64,000 nt of DNA, from the NCBI GenBank assembly GCA_964596165.1, contig CAZQTW010000003.1, forward strand, positions 43,216 through 107,215, in the 5' to 3' direction. The notes under the pieces were generated by a model that did not search any database, was not told where the DNA came from, and worked only from the letters and a program-made list of their open reading frames with translations. Made by a program: the position numbers and the translations under genes. This document shows, piece after piece, positions 18,266-37,093 of the stretch. Numbering within the stretch: the first letter of the stretch is position 1; the number at the start of each line of letters is the position of its first letter. The DNA comes from an uncultured Planctomycetales bacterium. GTDB taxonomy: Bacteria; Planctomycetota; Phycisphaerae; UBA1845; JAFGLZ01.

Positions 18266-20017
18266 ATGGCTCAAAACCTGGAAGATTCGAAGGACATTCG
18301 GCACACGTTGAGCACGGTCATCGAGGTGGTTCGCCGCCGTCGGTGGGCCTTGATCATACCCGGCTGCCTCGCAGCGTTTTGTGCCCTGCTCGTCACGTTC
18401 ACGTATCCGCGGATCTTCGTCGCCAAGACCATGTTCGAACGTCGCGACAGCATCGTGATCGCCAACTTGATTTCCGTCTACCAGCGAAACCCGATTTCCT
18501 TCGCGAACGTCCGGAAGTCCATCTATGTGGACATCAAGGGCTACAAGGCGGTCGAACGTGCCGTGGAACAGCTCGGTTTAGACAAGGGTCTGCCTCGCGA
18601 CGCCAACGGCGACCTGACGTCGGAAGGGCGGCAGGCCAAGCAGGCGATGATCAACCAGATTGCGTCCGACTGCGAAATCTACCTCAGTGACTCGACCGAC
18701 ACGATGGACCTCATTCGAATGTCGCTTTCCAGCAAGGACCCCGCAGCGGCTCGTGCCATACTGACGGCTCTTCGCGACAACTACATTCAGAGCATCCAGG
18801 AACGAATCACGCAGATGTTGGAGAACGCCCAGGCGTACTTCAAGAAGGAAGCCGATCAATTGCGGGAGATTGTGTCCCAGCACGAAGCGGACATGGTCAA
18901 GTTTCGCTCGCAGTTCTCGGGCGCCGATCCGGCCGACCCGGAGTCAATCGTTCACCGCCTGACGGCCCTGACCGTTCAACGGGAGGATCTCAAGCGACGG
19001 GCCCAGGAACTCGAGATGGAAATCCGTCTGAATGAGGACTATCTCGGCAAGAACACGCCGACGACGTCGAAGCCCGCGTCGAGCCAGCCTCGCGTGGCGA
19101 CGGTTCGAGTTGAGCCTCCTCCGACTCGGCCGAACCCGGCCAGGGCCGAGGTGCAGCGCAGGATCGACGCGCTGGTGGCGCTGATTGCGGAGAGGAAGAT
19201 GGCGATGACGGAGGAACATCCCGAGGTTCGGCGACTGCGGATGAAGCTTGCCCAGGCGGAGCATGAACTGTCGCGGACGCCCCCGCTCATTCCGGTGGAT
19301 GTCGCGCCGACCGTGGCGGCGGCCGCGCCTTCCTCTCCCGATACGGAAGGCCAGGCACGACGGTTCGAGCAGTTGCGCTTGGAGGTGGCTCAGCGGAACC
19401 TCCAGCAACAGTTGGCCAAGACGCGGCACGATCTGGAGCTGGTTGAGCGGCAGATCGCTCGATACGAGGCGGAAAAGGGGGCGATCTTCGAGCGGCGCCA
19501 GGAATACCTGCGGCGCCAGGAGCAACTCAGCAGCGCGATGGCCAGTTTCAAGCAGGAAATGAAGCGTTACGACGGCGTCACCGAAATCCTCAAGGCCGAG
19601 CAGAACAAGCGCGGCGTGAGTTTCAAGGTCCTGGAGGAGACACAGGTTTCGCCCAAACCGGTATCGCCGACGATGAGTCGACTCACAACGATGAGCCTGG
19701 GATTCGGGTCGGCCGTCGGATTGGCCTGCGCGGTCTTGCTGGAGCTGCTCGACCGCACGTTCCGGGCGCCGAGTCAAATCAACTCGATCCTTCAGTTGCC
19801 GGTGCTGCAATGCATCGGGGAATTCGTCAGTCCCGGGATGAAACGACGTCGGTTGGCCAAACGGGTCGCCCTTCACCTGGTGGCGACGGTGCTGATTCTG
19901 CTTGTGTGCGCGACCTCCGGGCTCGTCTACCTCAGTCTGGAGAAACCGCATCTGTACGAGAGGCTGAAGATGAATCCGGAGGCCATGACGCTGCGAGTCA
20001 TGGGCATCGCTCCTTAG
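18266..20017 (+). CDS. Polysaccharide chain-length determinant / co-polymerase (GumC/Wzz-like), without a kinase domain
   Basis: It has an N-terminal TM (WALIIPGCLAAFCALLV), a long coiled-coil periplasmic region and a C-terminal TM (VALHLVATVLILLVCATSGLVYL). The gene sits between the exporter and the BY-kinase. Confidence 0.75.
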   Translation: MAQNLEDSKDIRHTLSTVIEVVRRRRWALIIPGCLAAFCALLVTFTYPRIFVAKTMFERRDSIVIANLISVYQRNPISFANVRKSIYVDIKGYKAVERAVEQLGLDKGLPRDANGDLTSEGRQAKQAMINQIASDCEIYLSDSTDTMDLIRMSLSSKDPAAARAILTALRDNYIQSIQERITQMLENAQAYFKKEADQLREIVSQHEADMVKFRSQFSGADPADPESIVHRLTALTVQREDLKRRAQELEMEIRLNEDYLGKNTPTTSKPASSQPRVATVRVEPPPTRPNPARAEVQRRIDALVALIAERKMAMTEEHPEVRRLRMKLAQAEHELSRTPPLIPVDVAPTVAAAAPSSPDTEGQARRFEQLRLEVAQRNLQQQLAKTRHDLELVERQIARYEAEKGAIFERRQEYLRRQEQLSSAMASFKQEMKRYDGVTEILKAEQNKRGVSFKVLEETQVSPKPVSPTMSRLTTMSLGFGSAVGLACAVLLELLDRTFRAPSQINSILQLPVLQCIGEFVSPGMKRRRLAKRVALHLVATVLILLVCATSGLVYLSLEKPHLYERLKMNPEAMTLRVMGIAP

Positions 20018-20047: not shown

Positions 20048-20962
20048 ATGGGCAGGATTGCAGACGCATTGAGAAGGGCGGAAGAGGAACGAACGCTATC
20101 CGCCTCGATATCGCGTCCGGGCGCCCGGGCGGTCGGCGGCGTCGCCGTGGCGGAGGGAGAGGCGTCCGAGATCGCCCGGCCGCCTCGTTTGGGGCTCCGC
20201 CCCGACACTCCACCGACCTCGGAGAGCCGCACCCGCACCGGTTTTTCTCCGGAGACCGCCGGGCGTGGGACCGACCCGGCGCTGGTGGCACTGCGGGGCT
20301 ATGACTCGATGCTTGTGGAGCAGTACCGTGCCCTGCGGACGCGATTGCTGAGCCAGAGCGGACGGGCGCGGTCCCAGGTCATCGCCATCACGAGCACGCT
20401 TTCCGGTGAAGGAAAGACCGTCACCACCGCGAATCTGGGTTGCGTCATGGCGGAAGTCAAGCACCTGCGGATATTGCTGGCCGATGCCGATTTCAGAAAG
20501 ACGCGATTGGGGGGCCTGTTCGGGCTGAAGTCAAGCCCCGGTTTGGTGGAGGTGCTTCAGGATCGCACCACGCTCGACGAATCGGTTCAGAAAACCCAAG
20601 TGCCCAACCTCGACCTCATGGCGGCGGGAAACACCCAGGGAGTGAATCCCGCGGAGTTGCTGAGTTCCAAGCGAGCGGCGGCCGTCTTCGACGAACTCAA
20701 GGATCGATACAACTACGTTTTGGTCGACACGCCGCCGTGTGGTGACGTGGCCGATGCGGGAATCGTGGGGCAAGTCGCCGACGGCGCACTCATGATTGTC
20801 CGGTTGGGAAAGACCCCACAACCCGCGGCCAAACGGATCGTCCAGATGCTGCGGGCGAGCAATGTGAGGCTGATCGGGTGCGTCTTGGTCGGTTCGGACG
20901 AGGAGCGTTCTCCCTACGGCTATGACGACTACGGATACGGGATACGCGAGAAGGGAACGTAG
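20048..20962 (+). CDS. Bacterial tyrosine (BY) autokinase, CpsD/CapB-like, free-standing
   Basis: Walker A is ITSTLSGEGKTVTTANLG, Walker A' is LLADADFRK and Walker B is YVLVDTPP. The C-terminus has a Tyr cluster (SPYGYDDYGYGI). GGAGAGG lies upstream of the ATG. Confidence 0.85.
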   Translation: MGRIADALRRAEEERTLSASISRPGARAVGGVAVAEGEASEIARPPRLGLRPDTPPTSESRTRTGFSPETAGRGTDPALVALRGYDSMLVEQYRALRTRLLSQSGRARSQVIAITSTLSGEGKTVTTANLGCVMAEVKHLRILLADADFRKTRLGGLFGLKSSPGLVEVLQDRTTLDESVQKTQVPNLDLMAAGNTQGVNPAELLSSKRAAAVFDELKDRYNYVLVDTPPCGDVADAGIVGQVADGALMIVRLGKTPQPAAKRIVQMLRASNVRLIGCVLVGSDEERSPYGYDDYGYGIREKGT

Positions 20963-21064
20963 CCTCTCGGCAAACCCGCCCGTTCTGGCGGTCGGTGGGC
21001 CGAGCCGGCCCTTTCCTGTGCTGTCGTCTCGAGGGGACTTGCCCATTCGCTCAACGGATGATCG

Positions 21065-22798
21065 ATGCGTCTCACGTTGACCATGCTTGATGCCCGTCCT
21101 TCCGGGGAGGCGACCGAGAGAACGCCGTCGAACGCCGTCTCGGCGTCGCGTCGCGCCGGTGCGATTGCGTGGAGTCGTCGGGACGCGTTGCTCCTGGGCG
21201 TTGCGGTGGCGGCGTCGCTCGCCGTACTGATCCCTCACTTGGCCGCTCCCGGGTTCTTCCACAACGACGAAGCCCAGCACGCCGTCAGTGGAGCCTTTTG
21301 CAGGGACGCCTTGGCGGACTTTGCGACGTTCGTCTGCGACCCGGTGGGGTATGCGGCCACGTGGTATGCGCACTTCCCCGGCATGGTCATCCCATTCTAT
21401 TACCCCCCTTTGGTTCACGGCATTCTGGGTGTTGCGTTTCTGGTGGGGGGTGTCTCGCTTCTTGCGGCGAGGCTCGTCATCGTCGCCTTCGCAATCTGGG
21501 GTGTGGTCTTTCTTTTCCTCACCCTGCGTCTGCTGGTGGGGAGGACGGCGGCTCTGGCCGGACCGCTGCTCTTGGTGTCGATTCCCGAGGTGACGCTGTG
21601 GGGCCATAGCGTCATGCTCGAGGTCCCCATGACCGCCATGGTGATCACTGCCGCCTATTTCCTCGTCGCTTACGTCGAATGCGACCGACGACGTGCGGTA
21701 TACGGTTGGGCCGTCTTCACTCTCATGGCGCTGATGACCAAGCAGCCTGCCTTGTTCTTCCTGCCGGTGTCGATGCTCTACGTCCTCTTGCGGGGTCGGT
21801 GGTCGCTTCTCCGTCGAAGGGAGTGCATGATTGCCGTGGGCGTGGTTGTGCTTGTCACCATTGCCTACGTTTTCTTCCAAGCCGGCTTCGCAAGGGTCTT
21901 CGTGGCCGTGTCGGTCAACAGTGCGTCCGTGGCTTCGCGACTGAGCTGGTCGCACTTCGCGTCGTATCCGTCGGTCTTCTGGCAGATGGCCCCGGCAACG
22001 ACCCTTCTGGCAATTGTCGGCGCAGGGGTGGGATGGCGCCGAGGATACCGGGCGGCCGTGGTCCTTGGCATGGCGTGGTTGCTGGGGTTCTTGCTCTTCC
22101 AGACGGCCATCACCGGGCGCAGCGCCCGCTACGCGGTGCCGGCCATGCCGGCCCTGGCGATGCTCGGCGGCATGATCTGTGTGCTGCCGCATGCGACTCG
22201 GGGGCTGGGCGCGGCGGCCGTGTTGACGGCGATTGTATTGCAGGCGTCGGTGGGATGGTCCGACCGAAACGGCCCGGCCGCCGTTCAGGGGCAATTCGCC
22301 GAGGCGGCGGATGCGGTGTTTCGGCAACGGGCAGGCCGGGTGGTTCTGTACGAGGGTTACCACGACGGAGAGTTCATCTTCAACGCACGGCGCATCGCCG
22401 GCGACCGCAGGCCGTTCGTCCTTCGCAGCAGCAAAGTCATCTACAGTTGCGCGACCGACCCGGGCCTGCTGTTCTCGAACATTCGATCCACGGATCAGGA
22501 GATATACGACCTGCTCGACCGGACCGGCGTGACCCACGTCGTGGTCGAGGAGCCTCAGCGAATCCGGGCGCCGGGGACGTGCGCGATTCGTAGGATGGTC
22601 GCCTCCGATCGTTTCACGAAGGAGGCGGAGTATGAGATTGCCTGGCCCGGACGATGCCTGCGGCGAGGCCGTCTGGAGATCTACGCCTATCATCGGACCA
22701 CACCGGCGGGTGACGGGCGGATCGTGTTGCCGCTGCCGGGCGTCGGTCGTGAGTTGCGTGTGTCGATCGGTGGACCGGAAAAAGCCGAACCGAGCTAG
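21065..22798 (+). CDS. GT-C fold glycosyltransferase (GT39/ArnT-like membrane protein)
   Basis: 577 aa and polytopic. The acidic first-loop motif FFHNDEAQHA resembles the DE motif of PMT/ArnT-type enzymes. The C-terminal ~170 aa form a soluble domain. Confidence 0.75.
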   Translation: MRLTLTMLDARPSGEATERTPSNAVSASRRAGAIAWSRRDALLLGVAVAASLAVLIPHLAAPGFFHNDEAQHAVSGAFCRDALADFATFVCDPVGYAATWYAHFPGMVIPFYYPPLVHGILGVAFLVGGVSLLAARLVIVAFAIWGVVFLFLTLRLLVGRTAALAGPLLLVSIPEVTLWGHSVMLEVPMTAMVITAAYFLVAYVECDRRRAVYGWAVFTLMALMTKQPALFFLPVSMLYVLLRGRWSLLRRRECMIAVGVVVLVTIAYVFFQAGFARVFVAVSVNSASVASRLSWSHFASYPSVFWQMAPATTLLAIVGAGVGWRRGYRAAVVLGMAWLLGFLLFQTAITGRSARYAVPAMPALAMLGGMICVLPHATRGLGAAAVLTAIVLQASVGWSDRNGPAAVQGQFAEAADAVFRQRAGRVVLYEGYHDGEFIFNARRIAGDRRPFVLRSSKVIYSCATDPGLLFSNIRSTDQEIYDLLDRTGVTHVVVEEPQRIRAPGTCAIRRMVASDRFTKEAEYEIAWPGRCLRRGRLEIYAYHRTTPAGDGRIVLPLPGVGRELRVSIGGPEKAEPS

Positions 22799-22854
22799 GG
22801 GTGAGGAAGAACGGCCGCCGATACCTCGCCGACCGGCGGAAGGAAACATCAAAC

Positions 22855-23928
22855 ATGTATCTCGGCAAGAAGATCGGGGTGGTCGTACCGGCTCACAATG
22901 AAGCGCGTCTCATTCGAAGGACCCTGACGACGATGCCGGAATTCGTCGATCGAATCATCGTCGTGGACGACGCCAGCACGGACCAGACGCCTCACATCGT
23001 GTGCGACCTGGCGGCCGATTTCGACGGTCGACTCGTCCTGATTCGGCACGAGGGCAACCGCGGCGTCGGCGCGGCGATCATCACCGGTTACAAGCGCGCC
23101 ATGACCGAGGGCCTCGACGTTGTGGCGGTGATGGCCGGCGACGCACAGATGGATCCCGATGACCTGCCTCGGGTGATCTCACCCGTCTGCCAAGGGGTGG
23201 CTCACTACGTCAAAGGCAACCGGTTGTTCACGGGCGAGTCCTGGCGCATGATCCCCCGGGTTCGGTATCTCGGGAACGCGGTGCTGAGCCTGCTCACCAA
23301 AGTGGCCAGCGGTTACTGGCATGTTGCCGATTCGCAGACGGGCTACACGGCCATCGACCGCGAGAGTCTGATGCTTCTCGATCTCGATGCGATCTATCCG
23401 CGATACGGCTATCCGAACGACATGCTGGTTCAGTTGAACGTATTCGATCGTGTGGTCGCCGACGTTCCCGTGAGACCGGTGTATCGCATTGGGGAGACGT
23501 CCGGCATCCGGCTGCGCAAGGTGATTCCCAGGATTTCGTGGTTGCTGTTCAAACGATTCCTCTGGCGTCTGGGGGCAAAGTATGTGGTGCGCGACTTCCA
23601 CCCGCTCGTCTTCTTCTATCTCTTCGGCGCGATGCTTTTCGCGGGCGGGTTGGGATTCGGCGCATGGCTTGTCTGGATGCGGCTGTTTGTCACCAAGGTG
23701 GCGCCGACCAGCGCGATTTTGTCGATGTTCCTGATGGTGACCGGCCTGCAACTGTTGCTCTTTGCCATGTGGTTCGACATGGAACGGAACCGGTCGTTGA
23801 AGGCCGAACTGTCGCCGGGGTCGATGCCGCCCAGACGATTCGCCGGCAAGTCGCGGAACGCCGCGGCGGCAACGCGCATTCCGGACGACCGGACGGAATC
23901 GATAACCTCCTTGTCAATGATGCACTGA
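22855..23928 (+). CDS. Membrane-anchored family 2 glycosyltransferase (GtrB/ArnC/CsbB-like polyprenyl-phosphate sugar synthase type)
   Basis: GVVVPAHNEA...VVDDASTDQT...MAGDAQMDP is a GT-A/GT2 core, followed by C-terminal TM helices (LVFFYLFGAMLFAGGLGFGAWLV; ILSMFLMVTGLQLLLFAMWF). Start set at ATG 22855. Confidence 0.85.
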   Translation: MYLGKKIGVVVPAHNEARLIRRTLTTMPEFVDRIIVVDDASTDQTPHIVCDLAADFDGRLVLIRHEGNRGVGAAIITGYKRAMTEGLDVVAVMAGDAQMDPDDLPRVISPVCQGVAHYVKGNRLFTGESWRMIPRVRYLGNAVLSLLTKVASGYWHVADSQTGYTAIDRESLMLLDLDAIYPRYGYPNDMLVQLNVFDRVVADVPVRPVYRIGETSGIRLRKVIPRISWLLFKRFLWRLGAKYVVRDFHPLVFFYLFGAMLFAGGLGFGAWLVWMRLFVTKVAPTSAILSMFLMVTGLQLLLFAMWFDMERNRSLKAELSPGSMPPRRFAGKSRNAAAATRIPDDRTESITSLSMMH

Positions 23929-23935
23929 GATTGCC

Positions 23936-24925
23936 ATGCTCCGACGTCCGCTGGCGCTGACGATTGACCTTGATGAATGGTATCACTGTCGATGGGCGAC
24001 CGGCTCCGGCGACGCGTTGTGGCCCAGCACGACGGCATTGTTCCGAGACGTGTACCGGAGCGACCGGCCGGTCGGCGAACTGATCGAGCCGACGGAGTGG
24101 CTGCTCGCCCGGCTGGCCGAACGTGGCGCGAAGGCGACGTTCTTCGTCCTCGGCGAAGTGGCGAGGTGGTATCCGGATCTCATTCGCCGGATCGCCGACG
24201 GGGGACATGAGATTGCCTGTCATGGAATGCACCATGTCAACATGACCTGGGAGACCGAATCCTACTTCGCCTCGCAGTTGGCCCAGGCGAAGTCGCTGCT
24301 GGAAGAGTTGACGGGGCGACCGGTGCGTGGCTTCCGCGCGCCGAACTTCGTCGTGGCGCCCTATCTGGGGCGTGTGCTCCGCAAGCTGGCTTTCAGCTAC
24401 GATTCCAGCATCTGTCCCGCATGGTCGGTTCTGAGAACCGGCCGACGTTGTGCCCATGCTCCCCGAGAACCGTATGAGCCCGACATCGCGAATCTGTCGA
24501 CGAGCGGGCGGTCCGGTTTGATCGAACTCCCGATTGCCATGCAGGCCGGCGTAGCCCTACCCGGCGGTACGGGCATCATGGCGCGGGTTGCCGGAACGTG
24601 GTGGGCGCGCACGGCGCTGAACTACCGTCTGAGCAGGGGTTCGGCGATGTTCTACTGTCATCCGTACGAGTTGACGCCTGCCGGCGAGTCGCGGTGGCCC
24701 GCGAAGCTGCCGCTGCGTGCACGGGTGTTCCTGCGCCGGACGGGCGACTATCTCCGTCGGTTTCTTCTCGAGTTGATGGACCGCCGAGACGTGACGCACG
24801 TGACGGCCGGTGAGCTGGCCGAGCTGGCTCGCAACGCGAATGCCGTGAGCCGGGCCCGCCGGGGGGAGCGGGGAGAAAGCGTGGATGTGAACGCTGGCCC
24901 CGCCGCACAATCCCTGTCCACGTGA
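23936..24925 (+). CDS. Polysaccharide deacetylase (CE4) family protein
   Basis: LTIDLDEWYH...ATFFVLGEVARWYPDLIRRIADGGHEIACHGMHH is a NodB-type fold with His motifs. It resembles the PEP-CTERM-locus deacetylase and ArnD types. Confidence 0.8.
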   Translation: MLRRPLALTIDLDEWYHCRWATGSGDALWPSTTALFRDVYRSDRPVGELIEPTEWLLARLAERGAKATFFVLGEVARWYPDLIRRIADGGHEIACHGMHHVNMTWETESYFASQLAQAKSLLEELTGRPVRGFRAPNFVVAPYLGRVLRKLAFSYDSSICPAWSVLRTGRRCAHAPREPYEPDIANLSTSGRSGLIELPIAMQAGVALPGGTGIMARVAGTWWARTALNYRLSRGSAMFYCHPYELTPAGESRWPAKLPLRARVFLRRTGDYLRRFLLELMDRRDVTHVTAGELAELARNANAVSRARRGERGESVDVNAGPAAQSLST

Positions 24926-25169
24926 CAAATGTGAACCCAAAAGGCCCGGGTGAGGGCGTCGTCCGGGAATGCGCAGGTGGAAGATGAATCCCCCGCGGGA
25001 CCGGGGGATCGGATCGATCTTGCCCTGCCTGCCCTTCCTTATGCAGACACGGACGTGGGTTAGGGGCGTCTCCTCACGATTGACCCCTGCCGGTCACGGG
25101 CGTAGGGTGTTAGGGATTGTACGGACGGTTGGATCGGCCGAGTCTTTCCGAGGGCGATCAAGGGACCGA

Positions 25170-27464
25170 ATGGGAGCGGATGCCATCACATCGCCGCCGA
25201 CCCGAGCAAAGGCCCTGTTCAATCATTGGGCCGGTCCACCCGTGCTCATCATTCTGATCGGGCTGGTCTGCCTGTCCCCTCTGTGGACAAGCCGTGGCGT
25301 CGTTTACTCCAAACACTCGGACATCATTGCCGAGCACCTCGGCGTCAAGGCCCTTGGTCAACGATCCGTGGATCTTCACGGTAGACTGCCGCTGTGGAAT
25401 CCCCATATGAACTGCGGCGCGCCCGCTTTTGCCGCCCCCGAATCCATGTACGTCTTCCCGTTCGATCTGCTCTATCTGTTCCTTCCGCTCGATCGTGCGA
25501 CGAATGGGGTCATCCTGCTGAACGTCGTGCTGGCGGGCCTGACCATGTATCTCTTCTGCCGCGGTTTTCTGAATCACCGTGCATCGGCCCTCTTCTGCGG
25601 AGTGGCCTACATGGTGAGTTATCGTTATCTGTCGATGATCCATGCGGGCTGGCTGCCAAAGATGAGCATGTACGCGCTGACACCGCTGCTGTTTTGGTCG
25701 TGCGACCGGGTGCTCCGACTTCCCGGTGTTCGCCGGTCGGCCGTATGGGCCGGCATCGTTGGGCTCTGCTTCATGCAGAGCGACATGCAGGGGTTGTACT
25801 ACAGTGGCCTGGGGTGTCTGCTCTTCGCGGGCGTTCGACTGATTCGGCAGGAACGGGCGCTGCGGCTGCGTGGACTCGGTTGTCTGGCGGCGGGAGGCAT
25901 CCTGGGTGTGATGTGTTCGGCGCCCGTCTTGTTTCCCCGGATCGAATTCGCGGCGCTCAGTTCGCGCGCGGAACCGACATACGAGTTTTTCGTGATGCAG
26001 CCGCCGGTATTGAAGGATACCAAGACGTTCCTCGACCCCCTCGATGAGGGCGGCGCCCGAGACGAGTTCTGGGAGAAGAACTTCTACTTTGGGCTGTGGT
26101 TGTATCCCCTTTGCATCGTGGGGGTCGTCGGTCGGCGGCGTTCGAGTGGATTCCTACTGGCCGCCATGCTGGGGGTGCTCCTCCTATGCTTCAATACGCC
26201 GGCGCTGAAGCTGCTGTACACCTGTCTGCCCGGCTTCGGGCTGTTTCGACAGTCGTCCAAGCTGCTCCTGCTCGGTCAGTTCATTCTTCTCCTGTTGGGC
26301 GGATTGGGAGCGGACGTGTTGCTTGCGGACCGAGAACGGCATCGAATCGTCTCGAGGCTCTTTCCCGTCCTCATGATCTGCGCGGCGGGCATCGCACTGT
26401 ATCCAACGTCGAGTCTCGGTACGTACGCTCGTTGCGCCATGGTCCTGACGATTGGACTGGCCGGCGCGAGCGTCCTCTTGCCTCGGCTGGGTGCGGGAGT
26501 CCTGTCCGTGCTTCTGCTGGCTCTTCCCGGGGTCGATGCCGGCGTTCGCTTTGGGCGGAGGATTGAGACTCGGCCGCTGCAGGAGGCAATTCCACGACAC
26601 GCCTTTCTTGAGGCTTTGAGGCGCGACGTTGTGCGAGGCAGGACTGCCGCCATCGGTCGGACGACGATTCCCTACGGCATGGCAGGTTGCTACGACGTGG
26701 AACTGGCCAATGGGTTCACCGCCTTGAATCTGAAACACTACCTGGAGTACTTCGCCGTCCTTCAATACGGCGATCCCAACCGGGGCCCGAAAGGCCCGTG
26801 GATATGGACGGACCTGAACGCGATGACCAAGCCGCAGATGCTTCAGGCAATGGATGTGGAATACCTGGTGGCCAACCAGCCATATGACTTTGATCCGATC
26901 GGATACGAGAAGACGGCGGCGTTTGAGAATGTCCCCGTGTTCTCGCTCTATCGCGGGATCGTCCACGTTCCTGTTCATGTCTACCGCCGGCGCGATCGGC
27001 TGGGAGCGGCCTTCTTCGCCACATCAGTGAGAGCCGTGTCCGATGAGGCGGCCTCGCTCCACGCGGTTGCCTCGGCTGAGTCACCACGCGATGCCTATGT
27101 CCTCGGTCTGGATGTCGATCCCAATGGGATTGGCGGCACGGGCGGGGCGGCCAGAATGGTTCGACAGGGCATAGACGAATACGAGTATCAGGTCGACAGT
27201 CGCGGCCGAAACCTGCTCATCCTCAGCCAGGTCTGGTATCCGGGATGGCGGGCCGTCCTGGAAGGCCGGCCGGTCAGGCTCTATCGCACGAACCACGCTT
27301 GGATGGCGTGCATCGTGCCGCCGGGTTCGCACCGCTTGCGACTCGAGATGACCTGTCCCCGTTTCTGGCAGGGTTTGGCTGCAACCGGAGCAGCCGGAGT
27401 GGCGATGGCCGCCTGGTTCATGGTGGAAAGAAGGCGGTGGACACCCCGCGCCAAGCCCACGTAA
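25170..27464 (+). CDS. YfhO-like polytopic membrane protein (putative GT-C glycosyltransferase)
   Basis: The N-terminal motif is LWNPHMNCGAPAFAAPESMYVFPFDLLY. More than 10 TM helices are present. The C-terminal beta-rich tail SQVWYPGWRAVLEGRPVRLYRTNHAWMACIVPPGSHRLRLEM is typical of the YfhO family. The start is uncertain, ATG 25170 or upstream to 24969. Confidence 0.65.
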   Translation: MGADAITSPPTRAKALFNHWAGPPVLIILIGLVCLSPLWTSRGVVYSKHSDIIAEHLGVKALGQRSVDLHGRLPLWNPHMNCGAPAFAAPESMYVFPFDLLYLFLPLDRATNGVILLNVVLAGLTMYLFCRGFLNHRASALFCGVAYMVSYRYLSMIHAGWLPKMSMYALTPLLFWSCDRVLRLPGVRRSAVWAGIVGLCFMQSDMQGLYYSGLGCLLFAGVRLIRQERALRLRGLGCLAAGGILGVMCSAPVLFPRIEFAALSSRAEPTYEFFVMQPPVLKDTKTFLDPLDEGGARDEFWEKNFYFGLWLYPLCIVGVVGRRRSSGFLLAAMLGVLLLCFNTPALKLLYTCLPGFGLFRQSSKLLLLGQFILLLLGGLGADVLLADRERHRIVSRLFPVLMICAAGIALYPTSSLGTYARCAMVLTIGLAGASVLLPRLGAGVLSVLLLALPGVDAGVRFGRRIETRPLQEAIPRHAFLEALRRDVVRGRTAAIGRTTIPYGMAGCYDVELANGFTALNLKHYLEYFAVLQYGDPNRGPKGPWIWTDLNAMTKPQMLQAMDVEYLVANQPYDFDPIGYEKTAAFENVPVFSLYRGIVHVPVHVYRRRDRLGAAFFATSVRAVSDEAASLHAVASAESPRDAYVLGLDVDPNGIGGTGGAARMVRQGIDEYEYQVDSRGRNLLILSQVWYPGWRAVLEGRPVRLYRTNHAWMACIVPPGSHRLRLEMTCPRFWQGLAATGAAGVAMAAWFMVERRRWTPRAKPT

Positions 27465-27525
27465 CGGCACGTCGATGCGTCCGCGGTGTGTGGTTCGTCC
27501 CCTGAACGCCTACGATCGCAACCGC

Positions 27526-28272
27526 CTACGCAAAATCCTTGCGGCGGGCGAGTTCGTCCGGCCGCTGATCGATTCGACTCACCTGTGTGGGTGAAAGGAA
27601 TCGCGGGCCTCCGGCAGCCAAGCTCGCCACGAGAATGCGGCACGTCTTTACCAACATGCAGGTGCCGTTCAAGACCTCCTGGACGGTGTTGCCGAGGACG
27701 ATCACGCCGTGGTTCTCCATCAGCACGACCTTGGGGACTCGCCGATGCTCCGCCTGGAAATCCTGGATGGTTCGGCGAACGGCATGCGCCAGCGGTAGGC
27801 CCGGGTCGGTGTAGGGGACGTACGCGAGCGCCGGTCCAAGGACGACGATCTGATCCGGAAAGAGGCTACCGGCAAAGACCTCGCGGCTCTGGCGACCGCT
27901 CAACAGACCGACGGCCACGGTCGGATGGGTGTGCCCCACGAAACGGACGCCATCGAGTTGGAGACACATCGCGTGTAGGAAGGTTTCGATGGAGGGAGCT
28001 CGATTGCCGGAATCCGTGGATGACTTCAGGACCTGCTTGACGGCCTCATCATTCATCTGCTGCCGATCGAGTGCGGCCAGGATCGGCGCGAACCGTACCT
28101 TCACGAAGCTCGCTCGACCGGCGGTCGCCAGTTGCGTCCCGGAGGCCTTGACCCAGAACGCCTCGTCGTCGGCGCGCGCCGAGGTATTGCCCTCTCCCAA
28201 GACGGCGTAGTCGTTGGCGGGCCGGCCCAGTTCGACGGACAGGGCGATCAGTTCATCCAGGACATCAGCCAT
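27526..28272 (-). CDS. Class II aldolase / adducin-family protein (aldolase or sugar-phosphate epimerase)
   Basis: MADVLDELIALSVELGR...LGEGNTSAR...VGHTHPTVAVGL...MENHGVIVLG shows the His-cluster metal site. ATG 28272 overlaps the upstream gene's stop by 8 nt. The track ORF's extra 75 codons overlap the phosphomutase gene. Confidence 0.8.
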   Translation of the reverse strand: MADVLDELIALSVELGRPANDYAVLGEGNTSARADDEAFWVKASGTQLATAGRASFVKVRFAPILAALDRQQMNDEAVKQVLKSSTDSGNRAPSIETFLHAMCLQLDGVRFVGHTHPTVAVGLLSGRQSREVFAGSLFPDQIVVLGPALAYVPYTDPGLPLAHAVRRTIQDFQAEHRRVPKVVLMENHGVIVLGNTVQEVLNGTCMLVKTCRILVASLAAGGPRFLSPTQVSRIDQRPDELARRKDFA

Positions 28273-29638
28273 TGAGTTGCTCCTTGATCCGGTCGTACAG
28301 CTCGGGCGCTCCGGCCAGGAATCGTGCGGCCACCTGCCGCAGGCTTTGCCGATCTCGCCCTTCGAAACGTAGCGTGATGAGGGGTTCGGTAATCGACATC
28401 CGCGCCAGTGCCCAGCCGTCGGGGTACTGCGCCCGCACGCCGTCGAGTCGCGTAACGTCGCCTGTGCAACTGTTGGCGATGTGGGAGAGGATATCACCTG
28501 CTCCAGCGGGGACGGGAATCCTCAGGTCCGGCGTAATGGCCGGCCACCTGATAGGGCGGATCAGGTCGGCCAGTGTCGAGTCCGACGTGGCTATCATGTG
28601 TGCCGCGACCAGTGAAACGAAGAGTGCGTCGTCACCCCCGCCGAGGGCCTTGAAGAAGTAGTGGCCGCTCACCTCGACGCCGAGGTCGGCCTGGGTTTCG
28701 ATCATGGCCGTCTTGATGAATCCGTGTCCACTCGGCTGCATGGCGCACGTTCCGCCGGCATTCACCACGTCAGATGCGAGGATCGACGCGCATTTCAGAT
28801 CGTACACGACCTTGGGCTGCGGGAGGCATCGCCGAACAAACAATGCGCCCATTTGTTCAGGCCGAACGATAGCGCCCTCGTTGTCGACGAAGGCGGCGCG
28901 GTCGCCGTCGCCGTCCAGGGCGATGCCCAAGTCGGCATGGTCGGCCAACACGCGTTCCGACAACACGGCCAGGTTCGAGTCCACGGCCGGATTGGGGTCG
29001 CGTTTCGCGAAATCGGGATCGAACTTGCAGGACAGGGGAATCACGTTGCATCCGGCGGCGGTGAGCACTGCAGGGGCAATCTCGGAAAAGGCGCCGCCCA
29101 TGGCATCGACGACGAGGGTCAGTTTCCCCTGCAAGAGGGTCTCAGGCTTGCTCCCGGCGGTAGCAGCGGCCTTGTGAAGGACATGACTCTTGTACTCCGT
29201 CGTCACATCCACCGAGTGAACATGTGCGCAACGGACTGTTGATTGAGACGAGGCCATGCGCGATTCGAGTTCCTGTACGAGTGAGGGAATCGCCGGGCGG
29301 CCGGCGACCATGAACTTCAGGCCGTTGTAACGCCCGGAGTTGTGCGATGCGGTGACGATGGCCACATTCGGACAGCCGAGGTGCGTCGCGGCGAAATACA
29401 CGAGCGGTGTCGGTGTCTGGCCGACGTCGTAGACGTCCACGCCGGCCTTGAGCAGGCCGGCGAGCACCGCGTGTTTCAATGCAGAGGTGCTGCGGCGGTA
29501 GTCGCCGCCCAGGCAGACCCGCTGTTGCCCGCGATCCCGGACCATTTGCCCCAGCGCCTGGCCGAGTCGGCAGGCAACGTCCTCGTTAAGACCCTCGCCG
29601 ACAACGCCGCGAATATCACACGCCTTGAATATGCTCAC
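28265..29638 (-). CDS. Phosphomannomutase / phosphoglucomutase (alpha-D-phosphohexomutase)
   Basis: The active-site loop is VTASHNSGRYNGLKF and the metal loop is ALDGDGDRAAF. The sugar-binding and phosphate loops are present. The GTG start overlaps the kinase stop (GTGA). Confidence 0.9.
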   Translation of the reverse strand: MSIFKACDIRGVVGEGLNEDVACRLGQALGQMVRDRGQQRVCLGGDYRRSTSALKHAVLAGLLKAGVDVYDVGQTPTPLVYFAATHLGCPNVAIVTASHNSGRYNGLKFMVAGRPAIPSLVQELESRMASSQSTVRCAHVHSVDVTTEYKSHVLHKAAATAGSKPETLLQGKLTLVVDAMGGAFSEIAPAVLTAAGCNVIPLSCKFDPDFAKRDPNPAVDSNLAVLSERVLADHADLGIALDGDGDRAAFVDNEGAIVRPEQMGALFVRRCLPQPKVVYDLKCASILASDVVNAGGTCAMQPSGHGFIKTAMIETQADLGVEVSGHYFFKALGGGDDALFVSLVAAHMIATSDSTLADLIRPIRWPAITPDLRIPVPAGAGDILSHIANSCTGDVTRLDGVRAQYPDGWALARMSITEPLITLRFEGRDRQSLRQVAARFLAGAPELYDRIKEQLNG

Positions 29639-31101
29639 AGATAACCCCGCCGCTTGAGTTCGCCGCGGAATCGTTCCATGCCGTCGTCGTAGGCGTGGAC
29701 CAGGCGCTCATCCGGTTCCACCCGACGGCTCACGCGGACCAGCCTTCGGATGGCCTCCCGGCAGTCGCCGATATGTGCGGTGGCCGCGAGGATTGCCGCG
29801 CCGATCGCGCAATCGGGATGTTCCGGAACGACGTATTCGCGTCGATTAACGGACGCGCGGATACGCAACCAGGTTTGGCCGGCGACGGCGCCGCCGGTGG
29901 CGTAAATCGTATTGGCGATCGGAAACCCCAATGCGGCGAACCGCTCGATTCCGAGTCGTTCCAGATAGGCGACTGCCTCCATGCCCGCTGCGAATCGCTC
30001 CGGGTCGCACTCAATCCGGTCAAGTCCGAACCCCCTGGCCTGTGGGCAGGCGAAGGGAAATCTCTCGCCCTCCTTGGTCAATGGATACACGGCGTGCTTC
30101 GTAGGCAAGAGGGCGGCCGCCTCGCGTCCGAGGGCATCGAGGTCCGTCTGCTGGGCGAATTGGGCAGTGATCCATTCGGCGCCGGTACTGGAGGCGGAAC
30201 CGGGCAGATAGCCGCCCGCCGGGTGGCGGTGGTTGTAGATCGCCCCAGCCGGATCGATCACGGGCTTGTCGGCCACCGCCTTGAACACCAAGGTTGTCCC
30301 AAGGGTCACATTTAGCTCGCCCGTGCGGCTTGCCCCCGAGGCCAGGCAACCGGCCGTCCCGTCCGTGCAGCCGGCGACGACCGGAACGCCAGCGGGCAGG
30401 CCCGTGGTGGACGACGCCTCGGGTATGACTTTGCCGATGGCGACTCCCGGCAGAACGATTCGAGGCAGTCGTGCCAGTGGAATGCCCAGGCTATGTTCGA
30501 TTTCCGGCGGCCAGCTCAACTGTCCGATGTCGGCGCCGGTTTTGAGCGCCGTGGAGACATCGGTGATGTTGTAGTGGCCGGAGAGCATGCCGACGATCCA
30601 GTCGGTCTGATGGACGATCCGGCGGCACTTGGCGAAGATTTCCGGCTGCTTCTGGGCCAGGTGCAGGATCTTGGGTAGCGCGAACGAGGCGGCCATCTCG
30701 ATTCCGTAGGTGCCGAGCGTCGGTCGAAGGGCATCCGCGCATCGGCGCGTCTGCTCGGACGCACGGAGGTCGTTGTACATGATGCCGGGCGTGAGCGGGC
30801 GGTTGGCGTCGTCCACCAATAGGAATGTCCCAGACGTCGCATCCACGGCGATGCCGACGAGCTCGTGATCACCTGTCAGGGCCGCCGTCGTTTGCCGCAG
30901 GGCGGCCTGTGCGGCGACGGTCCAGGCATTGGGGTCCTGTTCGACGCAAGGTCCGGAGGTGCGCAAGGCGGTGACCGGCAGATCGGTCCGGCCGGTAGCG
31001 ACCACGTGGCCAGTAAGGTCGACGGCCATCGCGCGTGCGCCGCCTGTGCCCATATCAAGGCCGATCACAATGGGTTGCCTATTACTCATCATTCCTCGCA
31101 T
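29635..31101 (-). CDS. FGGY-family carbohydrate kinase
   Basis: The N-terminus is IVIGLDMGTGGARAMAVD. The C-terminal segment IYATGGAVAGQTWLRIRASV fits the two-domain FGGY pattern. 488 aa. Confidence 0.85.
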   Translation of the reverse strand: MRGMMSNRQPIVIGLDMGTGGARAMAVDLTGHVVATGRTDLPVTALRTSGPCVEQDPNAWTVAAQAALRQTTAALTGDHELVGIAVDATSGTFLLVDDANRPLTPGIMYNDLRASEQTRRCADALRPTLGTYGIEMAASFALPKILHLAQKQPEIFAKCRRIVHQTDWIVGMLSGHYNITDVSTALKTGADIGQLSWPPEIEHSLGIPLARLPRIVLPGVAIGKVIPEASSTTGLPAGVPVVAGCTDGTAGCLASGASRTGELNVTLGTTLVFKAVADKPVIDPAGAIYNHRHPAGGYLPGSASSTGAEWITAQFAQQTDLDALGREAAALLPTKHAVYPLTKEGERFPFACPQARGFGLDRIECDPERFAAGMEAVAYLERLGIERFAALGFPIANTIYATGGAVAGQTWLRIRASVNRREYVVPEHPDCAIGAAILAATAHIGDCREAIRRLVRVSRRVEPDERLVHAYDDGMERFRGELKRRGYL

Positions 31102-34761: not shown

Positions 34762-34767
34762 AGGACT

Positions 34768-37007: not shown

Positions 37008-37093
37008 TCGAGGCAAGGCTCTCTCGGCGGGCAGCGGCGGATGAGACCCGCCCAGCGAATCGCCGGCTAACGTTCCGGCCAGGACATCGAGAA

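What the first reader, a model, noticed from the sequence alone, without database searches (positions are those of the whole stretch)
21065..27464. Four-gene lipid-carrier glycosylation module: GT-C (ArnT/PMT-like) - membrane GT2 - CE4 deacetylase - YfhO-like GT-C
The gene order combines two established logics. The first is ArnC (GT2 making undecaprenyl-P-sugar), ArnD (a CE4-family deformylase acting on the lipid-linked sugar) and ArnT (GT-C transfer outside the membrane). The second is the Bacillus/Listeria CsbB-type GT2 plus YfhO GT-C system for extracytoplasmic glycosylation. Both a PMT/ArnT-like and a YfhO-like transferase flank one GT2 and one CE4, with spacers between the first three genes of 7-56 bp. 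This suggests that a polyprenyl-P-(N-acyl)amino sugar is deacylated on the carrier and then delivered to two different periplasmic acceptors. That would install a cationic sugar on envelope glycans or proteins. No flippase gene (GtrA/ArnEF-like) is visible.
Basis: partly seen in the sequence, partly recalled or inferred. Interest (0 to 1): 0.55.

Follow-up and report, generated by a model that had tools for sequence, protein, structure and literature searches.

The report
Lipid-carrier amino-sugar decoration genes in planctomycete
The four genes are real, and three of them (a membrane transferase, a lipid-carrier sugar loader and a cytoplasmic deacetylase) form a conserved unit at the end of a polysaccharide-export operon that probably adds a deacetylated amino sugar to an exported sugar polymer; the fourth, YfhO-like gene is a recent neighbour and not a conserved partner.

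Summary
All four ORFs exist and match the stated families above Pfam thresholds: PMT_2, GT2, CE4+DUF3473 and YfhO. Two starts need correcting: GT2 begins at 22855 and YfhO probably at 25170. The genes are not a stand-alone module. They sit at the end of a + strand operon that begins with an OPX exporter (Wza-like), a chain-length determinant and a tyrosine kinase, in an uncultured Planctomycetales-like genome.

In the two nearest species the order exporter, chain-length protein, kinase, GT-C, GT2, CE4 is kept, but YfhO is absent. YfhO and three opposite-strand sugar-metabolism genes occupy a 6.7-kb block that the closest relative lacks. YfhO orthologues elsewhere lie in unrelated contexts.

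The carrier-level deacetylation idea gains indirect support. Across 78 genome loci of this CE4 family, 26 have a PpgS/AglJ-like polyprenyl-phosphate GT2 within 2.5 kb. Several of these also carry a GacJ/Rv3632-type DUF2304 protein and a PMT_2 or YfhO GT-C.

The CE4 is cytoplasmic and has an intact catalytic set, but it is not an ArnD orthologue. The sugar, the acceptor and the flippase remain unknown.

Verdict: partly supported; a new variant of the known GT2, deacylase, GT-C logic; moderate interest.

The parts
15022..17022 (-). Divergently transcribed AAA ATPase with a coiled-coil tail, XrtA/PEP-CTERM-associated ATPase-like. Locus context.
   Evidence: TIGR03015 scores 267.5 bits, below the cut-off of 324.5. 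The gene is conserved at this position in L001, L003 and L010.
17081..18202 (+). Outer-membrane polysaccharide export protein (OPX, Wza-like). First gene of the operon.
   Evidence: Pfam Poly_export plus SLBB_2. TIGR03027 scores 94.5 bits, below the cut-off. Gene callers start it later, giving 288 aa.
18266..20017 (+). Polysaccharide co-polymerase / chain-length determinant (PCP) with N- and C-terminal TM helices.
   Evidence: TIGR03007 scores 108.6 bits, below the cut-off. TM segments lie at about residues 28-46 and 538-556.
20048..20962 (+). Bacterial tyrosine autokinase (BY-kinase) with a Tyr-rich C-terminal tail.
   Evidence: TIGR01007 scores 142 bits, above the cut-off of 108. The C-terminus reads ...SPYGYDDYGYGIREKGT.
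21065..22798 (+). GT-C1: an ArnT/PMT-like GT-C glycosyltransferase. It has about 8-9 TM helices and a conserved soluble C-terminal domain of about 170 aa.
   Evidence: Pfam PMT_2, E 3.4e-11. The family profile hits ArnT 5ezm at E 6e-17 and Pmt1 6p25 at E 1e-3. D68 (motif HNDE, just after TM1), E186 and R442 are invariant in 60 family members. The family has 373 representative clusters at E<1e-30.
22855..23928 (+). GT2pp: a membrane-anchored GT2 of the polyprenyl-phosphate glycosyltransferase type, with two C-terminal TM helices and the conserved motif FAMWFD.
   Evidence: Pfam GT2, E 3e-24. The best NCBIfam matches are AglJ and PpgS, both below their cut-offs. The best PDB matches are DPMS 5mlz and ArnC 9hwj, 9bhc and 8vxh.
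23936..24925 (+). Cytoplasmic CE4 (NodB-fold) de-N-acetylase with a DUF3473 extension.
   Evidence: Pfam Polysacc_deac_1 plus DUF3473. The best NCBIfam match is TIGR03006, 124 bits against a cut-off of 276. D11, D13 (nearly invariant), H91, H96, H100, R134 and H242 are conserved in 32 sequences. The AF2 model has pLDDT 88. Foldseek finds CE4 structures, with 3rxz at the top and ArnD at rank 19.
25170..27464 (+). YfhO-family GT-C (764 aa from M68; the ORF is open from 24969). A lineage-specific neighbour, not a conserved partner.
   Evidence: Pfam YfhO, 42.3 bits. It matches, over its full length, a profile built from distant Pfam-YfhO proteins at E 1e-125. D51 in the first outer loop is conserved in 95% of 121 sequences. 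The gene is absent after the CE4 in L001, L003 and L010. Its orthologues lie in unrelated contexts.
27526..31101 (-). Three convergent genes: class II aldolase, phosphogluco/phosphomannomutase and FGGY sugar kinase. Together with YfhO they make up the block that is absent from the closest relative.
   Evidence: Pfam. In L001 the CE4 is followed after 289 bp by the small GT2.
31396..31587 (.). 71-bp tandem repeat (2.7 copies) in the intergenic region upstream of the small GT2. Its copy number varies between samples.
   Evidence: TRF score 356. There are 1 to 4 unit starts in L172-L174, and the gene coordinates there are offset by +/-71 bp.
31699..32484 (+). Small soluble GT2 of the AglJ / dolichyl-phosphate-hexose-transferase type. 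A second candidate loader of a polyprenyl-phosphate sugar.
   Evidence: Pfam GT2. NCBIfam AglJ scores 95 bits and DPhHxTase 66 bits, both below their cut-offs. In L001 this gene directly follows the CE4.
32554..38101 (+). Downstream polysaccharide genes: a 10-TM DUF6798 protein, a Wzt-type ABC ATPase with a Wzt_C domain, and two GT2s.
   Evidence: Pfam. The DUF6798 and Wzt genes are contiguous with the CE4 operon in L001.

Best explanation
The window comes from an uncultured Planctomycetales-like bacterium. Genes 17081-24925 form a conserved six-gene polysaccharide operon: OPX exporter, PCP chain-length protein, tyrosine kinase, ArnT/PMT-like GT-C (GT-C1), polyprenyl-phosphate GT2 (GT2pp) and a cytoplasmic CE4/DUF3473 deacetylase. 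The last three genes most likely form a lipid-carrier side-branch.

Inferred steps:
1. GT2pp transfers an N-acetyl-hexosamine-type sugar from a nucleotide donor onto polyprenyl phosphate at the inner face of the membrane.
2. The CE4 removes the N-acetyl group while the sugar is on the carrier.
3. An unidentified flippase turns the lipid over.
4. GT-C1 transfers the amino sugar to a periplasmic acceptor. The probable acceptor is the polysaccharide that the co-operonic Wza/PCP machinery exports.
5. No FemAB-like acyltransferase or methyltransferase is present here, although both are common partners of this CE4 family. The amine would therefore stay free.

Shown: the gene identities, the topology classes, the intact catalytic residues, the conservation of the triad in the clade, and the family-wide linkage of this CE4 to polyprenyl-phosphate GT2s.

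Inferred: the sugar, the order of the steps, the acceptor and the free amine.

The YfhO-like GT-C is a genuine YfhO-family enzyme. It lies in a 6.7-kb block that the closest relative lacks and is not a conserved member. It may use this donor or another polyprenyl-phosphate sugar, for example the product of the small GT2 at 31699-32484.
For: - Family assignments are above the Pfam cut-offs.
- The operon context has XrtA-like export genes.
- The order PK, ATPase(-), Wza, PCP, kinase, PMT_2, GT2, CE4 is conserved in the relatives whose CE4 is 74% and 68% identical.
- GT2pp is closest to DPMS and ArnC among solved structures and has two C-terminal TM helices.
- The CE4 has no signal peptide or TM helix, its metal and catalytic residues are invariant, and its model is confidently CE4-fold.
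- GT-C1 resembles ArnT, with an invariant Asp in the first periplasmic loop.
- Orthologous GT2pp-CE4 pairs occur in a Proteobacteria MAG (L016) and a Spirochaetota MAG (L021), lie 3.4 kb apart in a Pirellulales MAG (L013), and occur in three metagenome contigs (L100, L104, L117).
- Of 78 CE4-family genome loci, 26 carry a polyprenyl-phosphate GT2-like gene within 2.5 kb. That is 0.73 per 10 kb, against 0.07 at 2.5-5 kb and none at 5-10 kb. All nine sampled GT2s are best matched by PpgS or AglJ.
- Fuller modules of GT2, DUF2304 (GacJ/Rv3632 family), FemAB-like protein, CE4 and PMT_2 GT-C occur in Cytophagia, KSB1 and Micrarchaeota. Variants carry EamA-like or LPG_synthase_TM membrane proteins, or a YfhO GT-C.
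- A GT-C lies within 5 kb in 7 of 26 loci that have the GT2, against 3 of 52 that lack it (Fisher p = 0.013).
- GacI and PpgS, the GT2s that are activated by DUF2304 proteins, both make HexNAc-P-polyprenol (bioRxiv 10.1101/180810).
- In the M. tuberculosis GalN pathway the carrier-level deacetylase is still unidentified (PMC9671496).
Against: - No biochemistry exists for any member of this CE4 family at the lipid-carrier level.
- The closest CE4 relatives outside the clade (39-49% identity) mostly sit next to a small SAM methyltransferase or a FemAB-like gene, with no GT2 nearby. L005 lies in a Wzx/Wzy-type cluster. The family's substrate may therefore be a nucleotide sugar or an Und-PP-oligosaccharide.
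- Only 3 of 80 metagenome loci of the GT2pp subfamily have an adjacent CE4, so this GT2 subfamily does not generally depend on a deacetylase.
- The sugar specificity of GT2pp cannot be read from sequence. All NCBIfam matches are far below the equivalog cut-offs.
- No flippase gene is present.
- The CE4 is no closer to ArnD than to generic CE4s.
- The GT-C1 structure model failed.
Confidence: 0.5

Rival explanations
1. The CE4 and the GT2/GT-C1 pair work separately. The CE4 is an XrtA/Vim-type cytoplasmic de-N-acetylase that acts on a nucleotide sugar or on the Und-PP-linked repeat unit of the main polysaccharide. GT2pp and GT-C1 independently add a simple, non-deacetylated sugar branch in the periplasm, as GacI/GacL or GtrB/GtrC do.
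For: - The best named match of the CE4 is TIGR03006, the XrtA-system deacetylase.
- FemAB-like genes (20 of 78 loci) and methyltransferases (15 of 78) are common neighbours of this CE4 family, often with no GT2 nearby.
- In the Wbp/Vim pathway, VimE (a CE4) and VimA (FemAB-like) remodel an amino sugar without any requirement for a polyprenyl-monophosphate branch (PMC7468200).
- Of 80 GT2pp-subfamily loci, 77 lack a CE4.
Against: - The 7-bp spacing and strict co-conservation of GT2pp and the CE4 in the clade.
- Repeated independent adjacency of orthologous GT2pp-CE4 pairs in other phyla.
- The sharp local enrichment of PpgS/AglJ-like GT2s next to the CE4.
- FemAB-like genes often lie inside GT2-DUF2304-FemAB-CE4-GT-C modules, so the Vim-type logic and the carrier logic are not exclusive.
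Confidence: 0.3
2. One reading: all four genes form one unit, and one deacetylated polyprenyl-phosphate amino sugar is delivered by both GT-C1 and the YfhO-like enzyme to two different periplasmic acceptors.
For: - The genes are on the same strand and adjacent in this species, in every one of the five same-species contigs.
- YfhO is a bona fide family member with the conserved loop-1 Asp.
- YfhO-type GT-Cs do sit next to GT2-CE4 pairs in at least one other lineage (L044) and near a CE4 in L026.
- CsbB/YfhO pairs are an established system (PMC5836110, PMC8035078).
Against: - YfhO is absent at this position in both nearest species.
- Orthologues at 46-62% identity lie beside proS/ilvD, inside the ribosomal-protein/rpoBC cluster, or beside another PMT_2 gene.
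- The gap before YfhO is about 244 bp, against 7-56 bp within the triad.
- YfhO lies in a block with three unrelated opposite-strand genes that the closest relative lacks.
- A second polyprenyl-phosphate-type GT2 (31699-32484) is an equally good donor supplier.
Confidence: 0.15
3. GT-C1 is a protein O-glycosyltransferase (PMT-like) that modifies secreted or envelope proteins rather than the polysaccharide. Its operon linkage to the export genes would then reflect co-regulation only.
For: - Pfam PMT_2 (and PMT weakly in P0243).
- Pmt1 6p25 is the second-best solved match.
- The conserved C-terminal soluble domain could bind an acceptor protein.
Against: - ArnT is a far better match than Pmt1 (E 6e-17 against 1e-3).
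- The gene sits between a tyrosine kinase and polysaccharide genes in three species.
- No candidate acceptor protein is encoded in the operon.
Confidence: 0.1

Closest known systems
ArnC-ArnD-ArnT pathway (L-Ara4N modification of lipid A, Enterobacteria/Pseudomonas)
   Same: A membrane GT2 loads an N-acylated amino sugar on undecaprenyl phosphate. A cytoplasmic-face CE4-fold enzyme removes the N-acyl group on the carrier. An ArnT-type GT-C transfers the cationic sugar outside the membrane. GT2pp hits ArnC structures, and the GT-C1 family hits ArnT 5ezm.
   Different: The CE4 is not an ArnD orthologue: there is no ArnD family hit, and 8t0j ranks 19th in the fold search. The ArnC equivalog score is 37 bits against a cut-off of 529. 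No ArnA/ArnB-like gene was seen among the ORFs scanned, and no ArnE/F-like small membrane ORF was found. The genes sit in a polysaccharide-export operon, not a lipid A modification operon. The sugar is unknown.
Mycobacterial/corynebacterial GalN decoration of arabinogalactan (PpgS-Rv3632-Rv3779)
   Same: A polyprenyl-P-GalNAc synthase (a GT2), a step that flips and deacetylates the lipid-linked sugar, and transfer of GalN to a wall polysaccharide by Rv3779 (PMC9671496). Relatives of the window's CE4 sit in modules with a PpgS-like GT2, a DUF2304 (Rv3632/GacJ family) protein and a PMT_2 GT-C.
   Different: In mycobacteria the deacetylase is unidentified (PMC9671496). The window's GT2 carries its own two TM helices and there is no DUF2304 partner. 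The PpgS equivalog score is 48 bits against a cut-off of 370.
Francisella FlmF2-NaxD-FlmK and Bordetella LgmA-LgmC-LgmB (GalN/GlcN on lipid A)
   Same: The same three-step logic applied to HexNAc: load on undecaprenyl phosphate, deacetylate on the carrier, then transfer with an ArnT-like GT-C. lgmA, lgmB and lgmC are required for the GlcN modification (PMC4993483). The NaxD pathway is from my own knowledge (Llewellyn et al. 2012, cited in PMC8149597).
   Different: From my own knowledge, not tested here: those deacetylases belong to the YdjC-like family, not to CE4/DUF3473. The acceptor there is lipid A. Here the context points to an exported polysaccharide.
CsbB/YfhO, GtlA/GtlB and GacI/GacJ/GacL three-component glycosylation systems of Gram-positives
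   Same: A GT2 that makes a C55-P-sugar plus a GT-C (YfhO type or GacL type) that decorates teichoic acids or rhamnan outside the membrane (PMC5836110, PMC8035078, bioRxiv 10.1101/180810). The window's 764-aa protein is a full-length YfhO family member.
   Different: Those systems have no deacetylase. The window has no GtcA/GtrA flippase or GacJ. The YfhO adjacency is not conserved in relatives. The organism is a planctomycete without teichoic acids (taxonomy; the teichoic-acid point is my own knowledge).
XrtA/PEP-CTERM exopolysaccharide loci and the Wbp/Vim pathway (VimE CE4 deacetylase plus VimA FemAB-like aminoacyl transferase)
   Same: The best named matches of the CE4, exporter, chain-length protein, kinase and ATPase are all XrtA-system models. 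The proposed chemistry in that system is de-N-acetylation of an amino sugar to expose an amine (PMC7468200). FemAB-like genes flank 20 of 78 relatives of the CE4.
   Different: Every XrtA-specific model scores below its cut-off. No exosortase, FemAB-like or EpsI-type Asn synthase gene was seen in the window. Here the CE4 is coupled to a polyprenyl-phosphate GT2 and a GT-C instead.

Membership tests
GT-C glycosyltransferases of the ArnT/PMT type (Pfam PMT_2) | Match to the family model above the curated threshold | tested here: met
   PMT_2 scores 44 bits against a cut-off of 26.1. A profile of 60 family members hits ArnT 5ezm at E 6e-17.
GT-C glycosyltransferases of the ArnT/PMT type (Pfam PMT_2) | Polytopic membrane domain with a conserved acidic residue in the first extracytoplasmic loop | tested here: met
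   There are 8-9 hydrophobic segments. D68, in the HNDE motif just after TM1, is invariant in 60 sequences. E186 is invariant and aligns with the ArnT TLDM aspartate.
GT-C glycosyltransferases of the ArnT/PMT type (Pfam PMT_2) | GT-C three-dimensional fold | tested here: inconclusive
   The AF2 model from a 3-sequence alignment had pLDDT 41.6 and was unusable.
GT-C glycosyltransferases of the ArnT/PMT type (Pfam PMT_2) | Uses a polyprenyl-phosphate-linked sugar donor | not testable with these tools
   Needs a biochemical assay.
Polyprenyl-phosphate glycosyltransferases of GT2 (DPM1/GtrB/ArnC/GacI/PpgS type) | GT-A GT2 domain, closest to known polyprenyl-phosphate GTs, anchored by C-terminal TM helices | tested here: met
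   GT2 scores 86 bits. The top PDB matches are DPMS 5mlz and ArnC. The top NCBIfam matches are AglJ and PpgS. Two C-terminal TM helices are present.
Polyprenyl-phosphate glycosyltransferases of GT2 (DPM1/GtrB/ArnC/GacI/PpgS type) | Equivalog-level identity with a characterised enzyme, which would give the sugar specificity | tested here: not met
   AglJ scores 85.5 bits against 325, PpgS 48 against 370 and ArnC 37 against 529. The specificity is therefore unknown.
Carbohydrate esterase family 4 (NodB homology) de-N-acetylases | Family model match, metal/catalytic Asp and His motifs, and the CE4 fold | tested here: met
   Polysacc_deac_1 scores 74 bits. D11, H91, H96, H100, R134 and H242 are invariant and D13 nearly so. 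The model has pLDDT 88, and the top Foldseek matches are CE4 structures.
Arn pathway (ArnC/ArnD/ArnT with ArnA, ArnB, ArnE/F) | ArnD-type deformylase orthologue | tested here: not met
   No ArnD model appears among the NCBIfam hits. ArnD is absent from the profile-against-PDB hits. 8t0j ranks 19th, with TM-score 0.52 and 16% identity.
Arn pathway (ArnC/ArnD/ArnT with ArnA, ArnB, ArnE/F) | ArnE/ArnF flippase and ArnA/ArnB donor-synthesis genes in the locus | tested here: not met
   No small multi-TM ORF lies near the operon. No ArnA/B-like gene was found among the ORFs scanned across the window.
YfhO family GT-C (CsbB/YfhO-type three-component system) | Match to the YfhO model over the whole protein, with a conserved Asp in the first outer loop | tested here: met
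   Pfam YfhO scores 42.3 bits against 28.5, but covers only part of the model. The protein matches, over its full length, a profile of distant Pfam-YfhO proteins at E 1e-125. D51 is conserved in 95% of 121 sequences.
YfhO family GT-C (CsbB/YfhO-type three-component system) | Conserved genetic linkage with its GT2 partner (and a GtrA/GtcA flippase) | tested here: not met
   YfhO is absent after the CE4 in L001, L003 and L010. Its orthologues lie in unrelated contexts. No GtrA-like ORF was found.
XrtA/PEP-CTERM exopolysaccharide system | Equivalog-level matches to the system-specific models (TIGR03006, 03007, 03015, 03018, 03027) | tested here: not met
   All are the best or near-best named matches, but all score below their cut-offs: 124/276, 109/279, 267/324, 134/231 and 94/180.
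XrtA/PEP-CTERM exopolysaccharide system | Exosortase XrtA and PEP-CTERM substrate proteins | tested here: inconclusive
   No exosortase hit appeared among the roughly 45 ORFs scanned in the 64-kb window. The rest of the genome is not available, and PEP-CTERM tails were not searched.
Wbp/Vim-type amino-sugar remodelling (CE4 plus FemAB-like aminoacyl transferase) | A FemAB-like (TIGR03019/VimA-like) gene next to the deacetylase | tested here: not met
   No FemAB-like or Acetyltransf_6 hit appears in the window. Such a gene is present in 20 of 78 related loci.

The most novel reading that the evidence does not exclude
CE4/DUF3473 enzymes, so far labelled only 'XrtA-system polysaccharide deacetylase', are the de-N-acetylases of polyprenyl-phosphate-HexNAc in a widespread, undescribed module. 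That module consists of a GacI/PpgS-like GT2, a GacJ/Rv3632-like DUF2304 protein or the GT2's own TM anchor, the CE4, and a PMT_2 or YfhO GT-C. It is found from Planctomycetota, KSB1, Bacteroidota and Myxococcota to DPANN and Bathyarchaeota. It installs amino sugars with a free, aminoacylated or methylated amine on envelope glycans. The window would hold a minimal form that puts a cationic hexosamine on an exported exopolysaccharide. This would also point to the kind of enzyme that performs the still-unassigned deacetylation step in PpgS-type pathways.
Probability: 0.35. Interest if true: 0.65.

Novelty: new variant of a known kind. Interest (0 to 1): 0.45.

Why it matters
The scheme of loading a sugar on a lipid carrier, deacylating it there and transferring it outside with a GT-C underlies polymyxin resistance (Arn), Francisella and Bordetella lipid A modification, and mycobacterial arabinogalactan GalN. 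In several of these systems the deacetylase is of another family or is unknown. Here a different and very widespread deacetylase family (CE4/DUF3473) appears coupled to the same logic, inside a polysaccharide-export operon of a poorly studied phylum. The same coupling recurs across bacteria and archaea. If confirmed, this would give the family a substrate. It would also explain how some environmental exopolysaccharides acquire cationic or N-remodelled amino sugars, which matters for adhesion and flocculation, and it would offer candidates for missing steps in other pathways. As it stands this is a comparative-genomic inference, not a demonstrated activity.

Tried and rejected
No structural location of its catalytic residues is claimed. 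I used a profile alignment to ArnT instead.
- A 3-sequence GT-C1 profile found nothing in the PDB. A 60-sequence profile was needed.
- The word-indexed homologue search found only two GT-C1 relatives, which wrongly suggested an orphan. The exhaustive search showed a family of at least 373 clusters.
- The promoter and terminator scan gave no more sites than shuffled sequence, so it says nothing on co-transcription of YfhO. The hairpin at 20990-21011 is not above chance.
- Rfam found nothing in 14500-33000.
- The search for a GtrA-, ArnE/F- or DUF2304-like small membrane ORF near the operon was negative. The only small 3-TM ORF, DUF5658 at 45854-46258, is 18 kb away among fatty-acid genes.
- ArnD orthology of the CE4 is rejected.
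- Full XrtA/PEP-CTERM membership is rejected, because all system models score below their cut-offs and no exosortase was seen.
- DUF6798 as a recognisable ArnT- or YfhO-like GT-C: it matched neither of my profiles.
- No paper in the held library mentions DUF3473. The NaxD paper PMC3841722 is not held.
- I did not build a CE4 phylogeny to ask whether GT2-linked CE4s are monophyletic. Similarity scores alone show GT2-linked and methyltransferase-linked relatives interleaved.

Full report
**Observation**

They have the high third-position GC of real genes in this 62% GC window. Each matches its stated Pfam family above the curated cut-off: PMT_2, Glycos_transf_2, Polysacc_deac_1 plus DUF3473, and YfhO.

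Two starts need adjusting.
- An alignment with orthologues puts the GT2 start at M19, position 22855.
- The YfhO-like gene is called, and is covered by homologues, from M68, position 25170. This leaves about 244 bp after the CE4.

The GT2 has two C-terminal hydrophobic helices. The CE4 has none, and its catalytic motif begins at residue 8, so it cannot carry a signal peptide. No small multi-TM flippase-like ORF lies near these genes.

**Context**

The four genes are not a free-standing module. They follow, on the same strand, an OPX exporter (Poly_export/SLBB), a chain-length determinant and a tyrosine autokinase. A divergent AAA ATPase lies upstream.

Apart from the kinase, whose top match is the generic tyrosine-autokinase model TIGR01007 (above its cut-off), the best named match of each of these and of the CE4 is an XrtA/PEP-CTERM-system model, and every XrtA-specific model scores below its cut-off. 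No exosortase, FemAB-like or EpsI-type gene was seen in the window.

Downstream of YfhO lie three convergent genes: aldolase II, PGM/PMM and an FGGY kinase. After them come a small AglJ/DPM-like GT2, a 10-TM DUF6798 protein, a Wzt ABC ATPase and two more GT2s. The window also carries uvrA, metK, pyk and a complete dcw cluster. The nearest species-level genome is an uncultured Planctomycetales MAG.

**Conservation**

The relatives whose CE4 is 74% and 68% identical keep the order PK, ATPase(-), exporter, chain-length protein, kinase, PMT_2, GT2, CE4. After the CE4 they diverge.
- One relative continues after 289 bp with the small GT2, DUF6798 and Wzt.
- The other continues with an unrelated minus-strand gene.
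- Neither has YfhO there.

So YfhO and the three convergent genes (24926-31674) form a block specific to this species. All five same-species metagenome contigs that reach the end of the CE4 continue into it.

YfhO orthologues at 46-62% identity lie next to proS/ilvD, inside the rplKAJL-rpoBC cluster, or next to another PMT_2 gene.

**The proteins**

*GT-C1.* It looked like an orphan in the word-indexed search, with only two relatives. The exhaustive search found 373 representative clusters at E<1e-30, all about 550 aa with the same soluble C-terminal domain. A 60-sequence profile hits ArnT 5ezm at E 6e-17 and Pmt1 at 1e-3. D68 lies in the HNDE motif in the first periplasmic loop, and E186 aligns with the ArnT TLDM aspartate. 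D68, E186 and R442 are all invariant. Its AF2 model failed.

*GT2pp.* Among solved structures it is closest to P. furiosus DPMS and to ArnC. Its orthologues at 48-61% identity are common in metagenomes.

*CE4.* It has the full CE4 catalytic set and a confident model. Its best structural matches are 3rxz, HP0310 and PuuE-like CE4s, with ArnD only at rank 19. It is therefore not an ArnD orthologue.

*YfhO-like protein.* It matches, over its whole length, a profile of distant Pfam-YfhO proteins. It keeps the loop-1 Asp that is conserved in 95% of family members.

**Does the CE4 work on the GT2's product?**

There is no direct evidence. The comparative signal, however, is clear.
- Orthologous GT2pp-CE4 pairs occur in a Proteobacteria MAG, a Spirochaetota MAG, a Pirellulales MAG (3.4 kb apart) and three metagenome contigs. 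One contig has an LPG_synthase_TM flippase-like gene directly after the CE4. Another has a UDP-sugar dehydrogenase and a hexapeptide acyltransferase around the pair.
- In 78 genome loci of the CE4 family, 26 have a polyprenyl-phosphate-type GT2 within 2.5 kb. That is 0.73 per 10 kb, against 0.07 at 2.5-5 kb and none beyond. All nine sampled GT2s are best matched by PpgS or AglJ.
- Cytophagia, two KSB1 genomes and an unclassified bacterium share the order GT2, DUF2304, FemAB-like, CE4, PMT_2 GT-C.
- A Micrarchaeota genome has the same parts. Other genomes swap in an EamA-like 4-TM protein, an LPG_synthase_TM protein or a YfhO GT-C.
- A GT-C lies near the CE4 in 7 of 26 loci that have the GT2, against 3 of 52 that lack it (p = 0.013).

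DUF2304 is the GacJ/Rv3632 family. Its members activate GacI and PpgS, and both of those enzymes make HexNAc-P-polyprenol (bioRxiv 10.1101/180810). In the mycobacterial PpgS/Rv3779 pathway the step that deacetylates the lipid-linked GalNAc is still unassigned (PMC9671496). Together these observations make a carrier-level de-N-acetylation the most economical reading.

**Evidence against that reading**

- The same CE4 family is just as often next to FemAB-like genes (20 of 78 loci) or small methyltransferases (15 of 78), frequently with no GT2 nearby.
- In the Wbp/Vim pathway, a CE4 (VimE) and a FemAB-like enzyme (VimA) remodel an amino sugar. The level at which they act is unknown (PMC7468200).
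- Only 3 of 80 GT2pp-subfamily loci carry a CE4.
- The sugar specificity of GT2pp cannot be read from sequence.

I therefore give the carrier model about 0.5. The model in which the CE4 and the GT2/GT-C1 pair are separate branches of the same polysaccharide pathway gets about 0.3.

**Comparison with known systems**

The triad works like ArnC/ArnD/ArnT, FlmF2/NaxD/FlmK, LgmA/C/B and PpgS/?/Rv3779. It is a member of none of them. Equivalog scores are far below the cut-offs. The deacetylase belongs to a different lineage (CE4/DUF3473, XrtA-like). The flippase and the donor-synthesis genes are missing. The operon context points to an exported polysaccharide, not lipid A or arabinogalactan, as the acceptor.

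Because the window has neither a FemAB-like gene nor a methyltransferase, a free amine on the product is plausible. It remains untested.

**Verdict**

The GT2, CE4, GT-C logic is plausible and gains comparative support. The inclusion of YfhO and the two-acceptor idea do not.
- This is a new variant of a known kind.
- Interest is moderate for the window itself. It is higher for the family-wide association of DUF3473 deacetylases with GacI/PpgS-like synthases and GT-C transferases, which I did not find described in the held literature.

Noticed in passing
window 31396-31587: A 71-bp tandem repeat (2.7 copies, 96% matches) lies in the intergenic region upstream of the small GT2, DUF6798 and Wzt genes. 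Same-species metagenome contigs carry between 1 and 4 unit starts, which shifts the downstream gene by +/-71 bp (L172, L173, L174). This could be a variable promoter or phase-variation element.
   Followed up: partly
L176 7131-8204 (equivalent to window 22855-23928): In one same-species metagenome contig the GT2pp gene carries a premature stop (Y138 to stop, TAT>TAG). Two other substitutions lie within 30 nt of it. This is either a natural loss-of-function variant or a local assembly error.
   Followed up: partly
window 7781-10369 (-): A second PMT_2-type GT-C is fused to C-terminal TPR repeats (862 aa). Its TPR part weakly matches the XrtA-system PrsT lipoprotein model. This window therefore encodes three recognised GT-C transferases (two PMT_2-type, one YfhO-type) plus an uncharacterised 10-TM DUF6798 protein.
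   Followed up: no
window 32554-34761 (+): A 735-aa, 10-TM DUF6798 protein sits immediately upstream of a Wzt ABC ATPase, and no separate Wzm permease gene is visible. It matched neither the ArnT-like nor the YfhO profile. It might be the permease or another glycan-handling membrane protein.
   Followed up: partly
window 4400-5911 (-): A membrane-associated GGDEF diguanylate cyclase lies about 9 kb upstream of the polysaccharide locus. It is a possible c-di-GMP regulator of exopolysaccharide production.
   Followed up: no
window 20990-21011: A GC-rich hairpin (GGGCCGagcCGGCCC followed by TTTCC) lies in the 102-bp gap between the tyrosine kinase and GT-C1. In the nearest relative these two genes overlap by 14 bp. 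The terminator scan as a whole found no more sites than chance.
   Followed up: partly
L015, L017-L020, L023, L024, L026, L038 (CE4 at about 10 kb in most): The closest CE4 relatives outside the Planctomycetales clade (39-48% identity; Patescibacteria, Vicinamibacteria, Acidobacteriota) are almost always directly adjacent to a small SAM-dependent methyltransferase. This suggests a deacetylate-then-N-methylate pair.
   Followed up: partly
L075 559-5496 and L077 8916-13852 (Bathyarchaeota): An archaeal version of the neighbourhood reads LPG_synthase_TM (flippase-like), CE4, PpgS-like GT2, then a 729-aa 15-TM DUF1616 protein. The association with a lipid-carrier GT2 therefore crosses the bacteria-archaea boundary.
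   Followed up: partly
window 49104-63802 (+): A complete dcw cluster (mraW, a LysM protein, PBP, murE, murF, mraY, ftsW, murG, murC, murB, ddl) is present in this Planctomycetales-like genome.
   Followed up: no
window 38144-45405 (-): A fatty-acid degradation block (two acyl-CoA ligases, a thiolase and a FadB-like multifunctional enzyme) lies directly after the polysaccharide GT2 genes. It is followed by a small 3-TM DUF5658 ORF at 45854-46258.
   Followed up: no
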